This document shows positions 3,001 to 6,000 of a stretch of 8,070 bases of DNA, piece by piece. This DNA is from a virus (lineage: Duplodnaviria; Heunggongvirae; Uroviricota; Caudoviricetes): the IMG/VR virus record IMGVR_UViG_2695420380_000004. One strand, given 5' to 3'. The position numbers were made by a program. The stretch's first letter is position 1. Each line of letters opens with the position of its first letter.

Positions 3001-6000
3001 TTCTGTACGGAATGGCAAGTGGCGGTTAATTTATTCAGGGGAAGGCTGTATGGGAAAAGGTGGCGGTAAGGCACACACGCCTCGTGAGGCGAAGGATAAT
3101 CTCAAATCCACGCAGATGATGAGCGTGATTGATGCGATTGGTGAGGGACTGATAGAAGGTCCGGTGAAGGGACTGCAGAGTATCCTGGTGAACAAAACCC
3201 CGCTGACGGACACGGACGGTAATCCCGTGATACACGGTGTGACGGCGGTCTGACGCGCCGGGGAGCAGGAGCAGACACCACCGGAAGGCTTTGAGTCCTC
3301 CGGTGCTGAAACCGGACTGGGCGTGGAAGTGACGAAGGCAAAACCGGTGACGCGCACCATTACGTCCGCGAACATTGACCGCCTGCGGGTTACCTTCGGG
3401 GTGCAGTCACTGGTGCAGACCACGTCAAAGGGTGACCGAAACCCGACATCCGTCCGCCTGCTGATTCAGTTACAGCGTAACGGTAACTGGGTGACAGAAA
3501 AGGATGTCACCATTAACGGCAAGACCACCTCGCAGTTTCTGGCGTCGGTGATTCTGGATAATCTGCCTCCCCGTCCTTTTAACATCCGGATGGTCCGGGA
3601 GACAGCGGACAGCACCACGGACCAGCTGCAGAATAAGACGCTGTGGTCGTCATACACCGAAATCATCGATGTGAAACAGTGCTACCCGAACACGGCCATT
3701 GTGGGGCTGCAGGTGGATGCGGAGCAGTTCGGCGGCCAGCAGATGACGGTGAACTACCATATCCGCGGTCGCATCATCCAGGTGCCGTCAAACTATGACC
3801 CGGAAAAACGCACGTACAGTGGTATCTGGGACGGCAGCCTGAAACCGGCATACAGCAACAATCCGGCCTGGTGTCTGTGGGACATGCTGACTCACCCGCG
3901 CTACGGCATGGGAAAACGTCTGGGGGCGGCGGATGTGGACAAGTGGGCGCTGTATGCCATCGGGCAGTACTGCGACCAGACGGTCCCGGATAGTTTCGGG
4001 GAGACCGAGCCGCGGATGACCTTCAATGCGTACCTGGCACAACAGCGTAAGGCATGGGACGTGCTCAGTGATTTCTGCTCGGCGATGCGCTGTATGCCGG
4101 TATGGAACGGCCAGACGCTGACGTTTGTTCAGGACCGCCCGTCGGATGTGGTGTGGCCGTACACCAACAGCGATGTGGTGGTGGATGATAACGGCGTGGG
4201 TTTCCGCTACAGCTTCAGTGCCCTGAAGGACCGGCACACGGCGGTGGAGGTGAATTATACCGACCCGCAGAACGGCTGGCAGACCTCCACGGAACTGGTG
4301 GAAGACCCGGAAGCCATACTGCGCTACGGACGCAACCTGCTGAAGATGGACGCGTTCGGCTGTACCAGCCGCGGTCAGGCCCACCGTGCCGGACTGTGGG
4401 TGATAAAGACCGAACTGCTGGAAACGCAGACGGTGGATTTCACGCTCGGGTCTCAGGGGCTGCGGCACACACCCGGTGACATCATTGAAATCTGTGATAA
4501 CGACTATGCCGGGACCCTGACCGGCGGACGTGTCCTGTCCATTGATGCTGCCACCCGCACTCTGACGCTGGACCGTGAAGTGACACTTCCGGAGACCGGT
4601 GCCGCCACGGTGAACCTGATTAACGGCAGCGGTAAGCCGGTGAGTGTGGACATCACCGAACACCCCGCGCCGGACCGGATACAGGTCAGTACCCTGCCTG
4701 ATGGTGTGGAGACATACGGGGTGTGGGGACTCTCCCTGCCGTCACTGCGCCGTCGCCTGTTCCGCTGTGTCTCCGTCCGGGAAAACACGGACGGCACCTT
4801 TGCCATCACGGCGGTGCAGCACGTACTGGAAAAAGAAGCCATCGTGGATAACGGTGCCCGCTTTGAGCCGCAGTCAGGTTCCCTGAACAGCGTCATCCCA
4901 CCGGCAGTGCAGCACCTGACGGCCAGTATCTGGCGCAGGCGAAATGGGACACGCCGCGGGTGGTGAAGGGTGTGCGCTTCAGTCTGCGCCTGACCAGTGG
5001 TAAGGGAACGGATGCCAGACTGGTGACCACCGCCATCACCGCAGACACGGAGCACCGTTTCAGCGGCCTGCCGCTCGGGGAATACACCCTGACGGTGCGG
5101 GCGATAAACAGCTATGGCCAGCAGGGTGAACCTGCCACCACCACCTTCCGGATTGCCGCACCGGCAGCACCGTCGCGGATTGAGCTGACGCCGGGCTATT
5201 TTCAGATAACCGCCACGCCGCATCTTGCGGTTTATGATCCGACGGTACAGTTTGAGTTCTGGTTCTCGGAAAAGCGGATTGCGGATATCAGGCAGGTTGA
5301 AACCACAGCACGCTATCTTGGCACGGCGCTGTACTGGATAGCCGCCAGTATCAATATCAAACCGGGCCATGATTATTATTTTTACGTTCGCAGTGTGAAC
5401 ACCGTTGGCAAATCGGCATTCGTGGAGGCTGTTGGTCAGCCGAGTGATGATGCATCCGGTTATCTGGATTTTTTCAAAGGCGAGATAGGGAAAACCCATC
5501 TGGCTCAGGAGCTGTGGACGCAGATTGATAACGGTCAGCTTGCGCCTGACCTGGCTGAAATCAGGACGTCCATTACGGATGTCAGCAATGAAATCACGCA
5601 GACTGTCAATAAGAAACTGAAAGACCAGAGTGCGGCAATCCAGCAGATACAGAAGGTTCAGGTTGATACAAATAATAACCTGAACAGCATGTGGGCTGTG
5701 AAGCTGCAGCAGATGCAGGACGGACGCCTTTATATCGCGGGTATTGGTGCCGGTATTGAGAACACCCCTGACGGCATGCAGAGTCAGGTGCTGCTGGCGG
5801 CGGACAGGATTGCGATGGTTAATCCTGCGAATGGCAACACAAAACCGATGTTTGTTGGTCAGGGCGATCAGATATTCATGAACGACGTGTTCCTGAAACG
5901 CCTGACGGCCCCCACCATTACCAGCGGTGGAAATCCATCGGCATTTTCCCTGACTCCGGACGGAAAGCTGACCGCTAAAAATGCGGATATCAGTGGCAGT

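What the first reader, a model, noticed from the sequence alone, without database searches (positions are those of the whole stretch)
3239..3256. In-frame TGA at codon 68 of the J gene, in a TGA-C context
The J frame reads ...NPVIHGVTAV, then TGA at 3251-3253, then continues in the same frame with RAGEQEQTPPEGFESSG.... Lambda gpJ as I recall it has Phe at this position (...GVTVVFRAGEQEQTPPEGFESSG...). Homology on both sides in one frame means this is a nonsense codon, not a gene boundary. Taken at face value, J is inactivated, as expected for a decaying prophage. The stop is followed by C, and UGA-C has been reported as an inefficient termination context in E. coli, so low-level read-through is conceivable. 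A base-calling error is also possible.
Basis: partly seen in the sequence, partly recalled or inferred. Interest (0 to 1): 0.6.

Follow-up and report, generated by a model that had tools for sequence, protein, structure and literature searches.

The report
Nonsense mutation in dead prophage J gene
The in-frame TGA is a real Trp-to-stop point mutation in the tail-tip gene J of a defective lambda-like prophage carried by Shigella sonnei, and because the same gene also has a 22-bp frameshifting deletion, this is ordinary prophage decay.

Summary
TGA sits at 3251-3253, codon 68 of a lambda-type J gene (start 3050), followed by C. J homology runs through it in one frame.

It is not a sequencing error. 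The same TGA is in all 10 independent S. sonnei chromosomes and contigs fetched, and the exact 67-aa truncated product is on 551 contigs.

The ancestral codon of this J allele is TGG (Trp), not lambda's TTC (Phe). So this is a single G-to-A transition at 3253. It was in 78 of 80 closest viral-contig relatives as TGG, and none of 1337 matching E. coli complete-genome records carries the TGA.

Read-through would insert Trp and restore the ancestral residue, but it cannot rescue J. A second lesion, a 22-bp deletion between CTGACGG direct repeats after 4915, shifts the frame and stops translation at 4964-4966. All 10 S. sonnei loci share it.

The prophage has IS elements directly upstream of gene Z, and individual strains carry further lesions.

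The window is a whole short-read draft scaffold with two N gaps, which create false frameshifts in L and I. From 5214 it switches to a different J-lom-stf module.

Verdict: a fixed pseudogene. It is ordinary and of low interest.

The parts
3050..6519 (+). J (tip attachment / central tail fibre) pseudogene, broken into three ORFs
   Evidence: tblastn of intact J places residues 1-627 at 3050-4930 (frame 2) and residues 628-1229 at 4909-6513 (frame 1). Called gene pieces carry Pfam FNIII-A_GpJ, Phage-tail_3, Ig_J, Phage_Tail_Tip and Ig_GpJ_C. The N-terminal 366 aa match solved lambda gpJ 8iyk/9e7m at E about 1e-208.
3251..3253 (+). In-frame TGA, codon 68. It derives from TGG (Trp) by a G-to-A change at 3253. 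The next base, 3254, is C.
   Evidence: In the closest viral-contig loci, 78 of 80 have TGG and 2 of 80 have TGA.
3050..3253 (+). 67-aa N-terminal J fragment ORF, the product if termination occurs at the TGA
   Evidence: The exact product is on 551 contigs, named by the sources as S. sonnei host specificity or hypothetical protein. It is listed in 633 blocks of the assembly index.
3323..4966 (+). 547-aa middle J fragment ORF. It has a GTG start only by ORF convention and lies in the same frame as 3050.
   Evidence: The exact product is on 62 contigs, named S. sonnei host specificity protein.
4916..4922 (+). Retained copy of the 7-bp direct repeat CTGACGG at the junction of a 22-bp deletion. 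The missing sequence is CTGACGGTGGAGGTGAGCGCAG, between 4915 and 4916. The deletion shifts the frame.
   Evidence: Alignment to E2348/69 J. Intact E. coli J genes span 536 bp for the 514-bp query and 86 bp for a 64-bp junction query. The junction is present in all 10 S. sonnei loci.
4964..4966 (+). TGA reached in the shifted frame, 16 codons after the deletion junction
   Evidence...[18 protein letters not shown]
4960..6519 (+). 519-aa C-terminal J fragment ORF in the frame restored by the deletion. From 5214 on it is a different allele from the one in the S. sonnei complete genomes.
   Evidence: This exact product is found only on this contig.

Best explanation
The TGA at 3251-3253 is a true, inherited nonsense mutation (TGG Trp68 to TGA, G-to-A at 3253) in gene J of a defective lambdoid prophage that is fixed in the Shigella sonnei clone. 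J is a pseudogene with at least two independent inactivating lesions: this stop, and a 22-bp slippage deletion between CTGACGG repeats after 4915 that shifts the frame and terminates at 4964-4966. Ribosomes mostly terminate at codon 68 and give a 67-aa fragment. The rare UGA read-through by Trp-tRNA(Trp) would restore the ancestral Trp, but would still yield only a product of about 638 codons that lacks the whole C-terminal receptor-binding half. No functional tail tip can be made. Shown here: both lesions, their absence from close relatives, and their presence in independent S. sonnei assemblies. Inferred: neutral decay after loss of selection, and the actual translation outcomes.
For: The TGA is in frame with J homology on both sides. 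The closest intact alleles differ at this codon only by G at 3253. ATCC 25922 shows 2 differences across 2946-3837, one of them at 3253. E2348/69 J reads GVTAVWRAGEQEQ. Of the 80 closest viral-contig loci, 78 have TGG. Among the E. coli complete-genome records, 1337 match the 61-mer around the site, and none matches it exactly (best 98.4%, one mismatch). The TGA context is present in all 10 loci fetched through the 67-aa product. One is HE616528.1, identified as S. sonnei 53G in PMC5447701. The exact 67-aa product is on 551 contigs and is labelled S. sonnei. For the 22-bp deletion; it is shared by all 10 loci. Window 2946-5213 is 100% identical to two of the complete genomes (L005, L011). IS21-type istA/istB and another transposase gene sit directly upstream of Z. 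In one genome, holin and DUF1327 genes are followed by IS fragments and then Z, with no head genes between. Individual strains show further lesions: H split in L009, I split in L007, an extra 17-bp deletion in J in L010, and IS insertions in stf in L008 and L011.
Against: Nothing contradicts it. Expression and translation were not measured. The order in which the two lesions arose is unknown. I could not see the whole prophage in most genomes, so the loss of the head genes is shown directly in only one assembly (L009). L009 could itself have a collapsed IS region. The right-hand end of the window (5214 onward) is of uncertain assembly, but this does not affect the TGA.
Confidence: 0.95

Rival explanations
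1. Leaky UGA-C: low-level read-through by Trp-tRNA(Trp) keeps J partly functional, so the stop acts as an attenuator rather than an inactivation.
For: The stop is UGA followed by C. UGA read-through in E. coli depends on competition between Trp-tRNA(Trp) and RF2, and stop-codon read-through occurs at about 1e-3 to 1e-2 (PMC10570021). The inserted residue would be the ancestral Trp. That UGA-C is the weakest E. coli termination context comes from my own recollection of Poole, Brown and Tate 1995 and was not checked here.
Against: The 22-bp deletion downstream shifts the frame and stops translation at 4964-4966. A read-through product would therefore lack the C-terminal half, including the receptor-binding end. 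There is no canonical X XXY YYZ slippery heptamer between 4916 and 4966 by inspection of the sequence. The stop is not conserved in relatives: 78 of 80 have TGG. No head genes are seen next to the tail genes.
Confidence: 0.02
2. Base-calling or assembly error in this draft contig; the true codon is a sense codon.
For: The window is a short-read draft scaffold with two N gaps and a possibly chimeric right end.
Against: The identical TGA context is in 10 of 10 independent assemblies, 9 of them on contigs of 4.5-5.0 Mb from different projects. Two IMG/VR contigs also have it. The exact 67-aa product is on 551 contigs.
Confidence: 0.01
3. Programmed recoding at the UGA, such as selenocysteine insertion.
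For: None beyond the presence of an in-frame UGA.
Against: No Rfam family, including SECIS models, reaches threshold anywhere in the window. The 66 nt from 3245 fold no better than shuffled sequence (z = -0.04). Relatives encode Trp at this position, not Cys or Sec.
Confidence: 0.005

Closest known systems
Phage lambda gene J (gpJ, tip attachment protein / central tail fibre; PDB 8IYK, 9E7M)
   Same: It has the same gene order M-L-K-I-J-lom-stf. The N-terminal 366 aa align end to end with solved lambda gpJ at E about 1e-208. The sequence around the site, RAGEQEQTPPEGFESSG, is shared.
   Different: Lambda has Phe (TTC) at codon 68, whereas this allele family has Trp (TGG). Here the gene is broken by TGA68 and by a 22-bp deletion. 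The C-terminal half is only about 50% identical to the ATCC 25922 allele.
Intact gpJ genes of E. coli lambdoid prophages (e.g. ATCC 25922 WP_016265923.1; E2348/69 WP_000514675.1)
   Same: Identity is 99.7% over 2946-3700. The 5' 1.9 kb is co-linear, and the flanking K, I and lom genes are the same.
   Different: Those genes are uninterrupted (1230 and 1157 aa), with TGG at codon 68 and the 22 bp present.
Prophage and pseudogene decay in Shigella genomes (IS expansion, gene inactivation)
   Same: There are multiple independent lesions in one prophage: a nonsense mutation, a slippage deletion, IS elements at the edge of the tail module, and strain-specific extra breaks. That Shigella genomes are rich in pseudogenes and IS elements is my own general knowledge. 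PMC5447701 reports 23 prophage regions in one S. sonnei strain, many labelled incomplete.
   Different: Nothing distinctive; this is a typical example.

Membership tests
Lambda-type gene J (tip attachment protein J) | Sequence homology to gpJ along the whole length | tested here: met
   tblastn covers J residues 1-627 and 628-1229. The pieces carry Pfam FNIII-A_GpJ, Phage-tail_3, Ig_J, Phage_Tail_Tip and Ig_GpJ_C. The PDB match to lambda gpJ has E about 1e-208.
Lambda-type gene J (tip attachment protein J) | Position in the tail module: after M, L, K, I and before lom and stf | tested here: met
Lambda-type gene J (tip attachment protein J) | One uninterrupted reading frame of about 1130-1230 codons (a functional gene) | tested here: not met
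   There is a stop at codon 68 and a frameshift after 4915, giving three ORFs of 67, 547 and 519 aa.
Nonsense-mutation pseudogene | In-frame stop with homology continuing in the same frame on both sides | tested here: met
   A single tblastn alignment crosses the stop; see also the translation.
Nonsense-mutation pseudogene | Close relatives carry a sense codon one mutation away | tested here: met
   TGG is found in ATCC 25922, in E2348/69 and in 78 of 80 viral-contig loci.
Nonsense-mutation pseudogene | Reproducible in independent assemblies (not an error) | tested here: met
   Present in 10 of 10 S. sonnei loci, and the product is on 551 contigs.
Nonsense-mutation pseudogene | Additional signs of relaxed selection in the same gene or element | tested here: met
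   The 22-bp deletion, flanking IS elements and strain-specific extra lesions.
Programmed stop-codon read-through / selenocysteine recoding | The stop codon is conserved among homologues | tested here: not met
   Only the S. sonnei-type copies have TGA: 78 of 80 relatives have TGG, and no E. coli complete genome matches the TGA 61-mer exactly.
Programmed stop-codon read-through / selenocysteine recoding | A stimulatory RNA structure (SECIS or similar) just downstream | tested here: not met
   There are no Rfam hits, and the fold z-score is -0.04.
Programmed stop-codon read-through / selenocysteine recoding | An intact reading frame downstream that yields a functional extended product | tested here: not met
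   The 22-bp deletion causes a frameshift and a stop at 4964-4966.

The most novel reading that the evidence does not exclude
The headless tail-gene cluster Z-U-V-G-T-H-M-L-K-I-J-lom-stf-tfa of S. sonnei might be a domesticated F-type (lambda-tail-like) tailocin. J would then still be made at low level by recoding: UGA-C read-through inserting the ancestral Trp, plus a -1 shift in the 4916-4966 overlap. Alternatively, the 67-aa or 547-aa J fragments might have a function of their own. The J N-terminus does resemble the F2-pyocin tail fibre protein (E = 2.3e-68). Nothing else supports this reading. No slippery site was seen, and individual strains keep accumulating breaks in H, I, J and stf.
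Probability: 0.01. Interest if true: 0.45.

Novelty: already known. Interest (0 to 1): 0.07.

Why it matters
It matters little beyond correct annotation. The three ORFs at 3050-3253, 3323-4966 and 4960-6519 should be annotated as one J pseudogene, not as three "host specificity" or "hypothetical" proteins, which is how public records name them.

The two shared lesions are stable clone markers of the S. sonnei prophage remnant. They could serve as lineage markers, since they are absent from the E. coli complete genomes that matched the searches.

The case also shows why a single-lesion read-through argument needs a scan of the whole gene. It further shows that N gaps in draft scaffolds create false frameshifts, as in L and I here.

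Tried and rejected
- **Exact-pattern scan of genome contigs:** a 34-mer spanning the TGA gave 0 hits. That collection holds one genome per GTDB species. I recall, but did not check, that GTDB places Shigella within E. coli, so S. sonnei may not be represented. The scan is uninformative, not evidence of rarity.
- **Apparent extra lesions in L and I:** L appeared frameshifted at 799-900, and a 342-aa ORF (1926-2954) appeared to cover I and extend past it. Both are artefacts of N runs at 800-882 and 2505-2945. In complete S. sonnei genomes L is 232 aa and intact.
- **Selenocysteine or RNA element:** there is no Rfam hit and no significant fold.
- **Shared 22-bp deletion in E. coli:** the best E. 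coli matches to the junction all span 86 bp in two pieces, so they are undeleted.
- **Source of the right-hand module:** the 519-aa product occurs only on this contig. The truncated lom occurs only in four short contigs: three NCBI draft assemblies of the CX* accession series and one Logan assembly of run ERR025689. Whether the junction at 5214 is a true recombinant or an assembly chimera could not be decided.
- **Not attempted:** structure prediction and large protein-database searches, because the identity of the gene and of the lesion was already unambiguous.

Full report
**Observation**

The window reads GTC TGA CGC at 3248-3256, so TGA occupies 3251-3253 and C follows at 3254. The ORF that starts at ATG 3050 (MGKGGGKAHTPREAKDNLKSTQ...) is the start of a lambda-type J gene. 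Counting from 3050, TGA is codon 68. The same frame continues RAGEQEQTPPEGFESSG....

A tblastn of the intact J of E. coli ATCC 25922 gives one uninterrupted alignment. It covers J residues 1-627 at window 3050-4930, at 97.3% identity, straight through the stop.

**Where the window comes from**

The window is the complete 8070-bp contig CXCT01000170.1 of assembly GCA_001249045.1. The gene fragments on it are named by the sources as Shigella sonnei proteins. The CX* accession series is the set of S. sonnei draft assemblies of Holt et al. 2012, as listed in PMC5447701.

It is a scaffold with two runs of N, at 800-882 and 2505-2945. These gaps make L look frameshifted and create a spurious 342-aa ORF (1926-2954) that covers I and runs on past it. 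In complete genomes L is intact at 232 aa. The flanks of the first gap overlap by 9 bp, TGGTCCGCC.

**What the TGA is**

Window 2946-3837 differs from the ATCC 25922 prophage at only two positions, and one of them is 3253 (A here, G there). The ancestral codon is therefore TGG, Trp. E2348/69 J also reads GVTAVWRAGEQEQ.

Of the 80 closest loci in the viral-contig collection, 78 have TGG and 2 have TGA. Those two are the 100%-identical ones. One of the six search patterns contained the W, which biases this count slightly. Among the E. coli complete-genome records, 1337 match the 61-mer centred on the site. None matches exactly, and the best are 98.4%, one mismatch.

Conversely, an exact look-up of the 67-aa truncated product found it in 633 index blocks. 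The 10 places returned lie on 9 contigs of 4.5-5.0 Mb and one 131-kb contig. One of them is HE616528.1, S. sonnei 53G. All 10 carry the identical TGA context. The product is recorded on 551 contigs.

The TGA is thus a real, inherited TGG-to-TGA transition. It appears fixed in the S. sonnei copy of this prophage and is not a base-calling error.

The J homology changes frame near 4909-4930. Intact E. coli J genes span 536 bp where the window has 514 bp. Alignment to E2348/69 J shows that 22 bp (CTGACGGTGGAGGTGAGCGCAG) are missing after 4915. The deletion lies between two copies of CTGACGG, which is the signature of replication slippage.

The shifted frame reads ...[18 protein letters not shown] and stops at 4964-4966. 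A 64-bp query across the junction finds only undeleted (86-bp, two-piece) matches among the best E. coli hits. All 10 S. sonnei loci have the deleted junction.

J is therefore split into ORFs of 67, 547 and 519 aa. Gene callers see exactly these pieces in the S. sonnei genomes, as 67, 547 and 513/509 aa.

**Consequence for read-through**

UGA read-through in E. coli is a competition between Trp-tRNA(Trp) and RF2, and stop-codon read-through occurs at about 1e-3 to 1e-2 (PMC10570021). That UGA-C is a weak termination context is my own recollection (Poole et al. 1995) and was not checked.

Read-through would insert Trp, the ancestral residue. The product would still end at 4966 and would lack the C-terminal half with the receptor-binding domain. 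I saw no canonical -1 slippery heptamer in 4916-4966 (sequence).

No Rfam family, SECIS included, matches the window. The RNA downstream of the UGA folds no better than shuffled sequence, with z = -0.04. Programmed recoding is rejected.

**State of the prophage**

In the S. sonnei genomes the tail module Z-U-V-G-T-H-M-L-K-I-J-lom-stf-tfa is directly preceded by IS21-type istA/istB and another transposase gene. In one genome (L009) a holin gene and a DUF1327 gene are followed by IS fragments and then Z, with no terminase, portal or capsid genes between. That assembly may have a collapsed IS region, so this point is only partly established.

Single strains show further breaks:
- H is split in L009.
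- I is split in L007.
- J has an extra 17-bp deletion in L010.
- IS elements are inserted in stf in L008 and L011.

All this fits neutral decay of a defective prophage.

**Right-hand end of the window**

Window 1-799, 883-2504 and 2946-5213 are 100% identical to S. sonnei complete genomes. From 5214 the sequence diverges, with 45 mismatches up to 6062 and then unalignable stretches. It leads into a different J C-terminus, lom and stf.

The 519-aa product is found on no other contig. Related contigs of other draft assemblies begin at about 5399 and 5758, inside this region. So the join may be a true recombinant or a chimera made by assembling through a repeat. I could not decide which.

The lom gene here (6590-7072, 160 aa) has an internal deletion with a frameshift. 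The normal C-terminus...TDGFIVGVGYKF*, is readable in another frame at about 7066-7106.

**Comparison with known things, and verdict**

The gene is a member of the lambda gpJ family by sequence, domain content and synteny. It fails the intact-ORF criterion, so it is a J pseudogene. It meets every criterion of a nonsense-mutation pseudogene and none of those for programmed read-through.

Multiply damaged prophage genes in Shigella are commonplace, and the fragments are already in public records. I rate the finding as already known and of low interest (0.07).

The only more exotic reading is a domesticated lambda-tail-like tailocin kept alive by recoding. It has no support beyond the headless layout and the general gpJ/F-pyocin similarity. 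I give it about 1%.

Noticed in passing
window 800-882 and 2505-2945: These are runs of N (83 and 441), i.e. scaffold gaps. They make gene L look frameshifted (ORFs 484-924 and 897-1274) and create a spurious 342-aa ORF (1926-2954) that covers I and extends past it. The flanks of the first gap overlap by 9 bp (TGGTCCGCC), so its true size is negative. The second gap corresponds to 341 bp in complete S. sonnei genomes.
   Followed up: yes
window 4915/4916 (retained repeat 4916-4922), stop at 4964-4966: J carries a 22-bp deletion between CTGACGG direct repeats that shifts the frame. It is shared by all 10 S. sonnei loci examined and is absent from the best-matching E. coli complete genomes. This is a second, independent inactivation of J.
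   Followed up: yes
window 5214-8070: Identity to S. sonnei complete genomes drops abruptly from 100% to about 95% and then to unalignable. The J C-terminus, lom and stf belong to another lambdoid module. The resulting 519-aa J fragment exists on no other contig in the collection. Contigs of other draft assemblies start inside this region (at about 5399 and 5758), which suggests a repeat boundary and a possible chimeric assembly.
   Followed up: partly
window 6590-7106: lom is truncated to 160 aa (199 aa when intact) by an internal deletion with a frameshift. The normal C-terminal strand ...TDGFIVGVGYKF* is still readable in another frame at about 7066-7106. The same truncated product occurs in only four short contigs (three NCBI draft assemblies and one Logan run assembly).
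   Followed up: partly
window 7132-7159 and 7171: A GC-rich hairpin followed by a T run (CAGCCCGCCGGTTCAGGCGGGCTTTTTT) looks like an intrinsic terminator after lom. An stf-type side tail fibre gene starts at 7171 (MAVKISGVLK...) and runs off the contig end.
   Followed up: no
L002-L011 (S. sonnei loci), about 1-2135 and 14271-19300: IS21-type istA/istB and another transposase gene lie directly upstream of gene Z. Downstream of stf there are two opposed tfa genes, a gp37_C fragment and a 60-aa resolvase/invertase fragment, which looks like the remnant of an invertible tail-fibre segment. Strain-specific lesions are: H split (L009), I split (L007), a 17-bp deletion in J (L010), and IS inserted in stf (L008, L011).
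   Followed up: partly
L018, L019 (IMG/VR UViG_2531839193_000006, UViG_2671180456_000007): Two contigs filed as viral genomes carry the same TGA68 in J. They are therefore probably this defective prophage remnant rather than viable phages.
   Followed up: no
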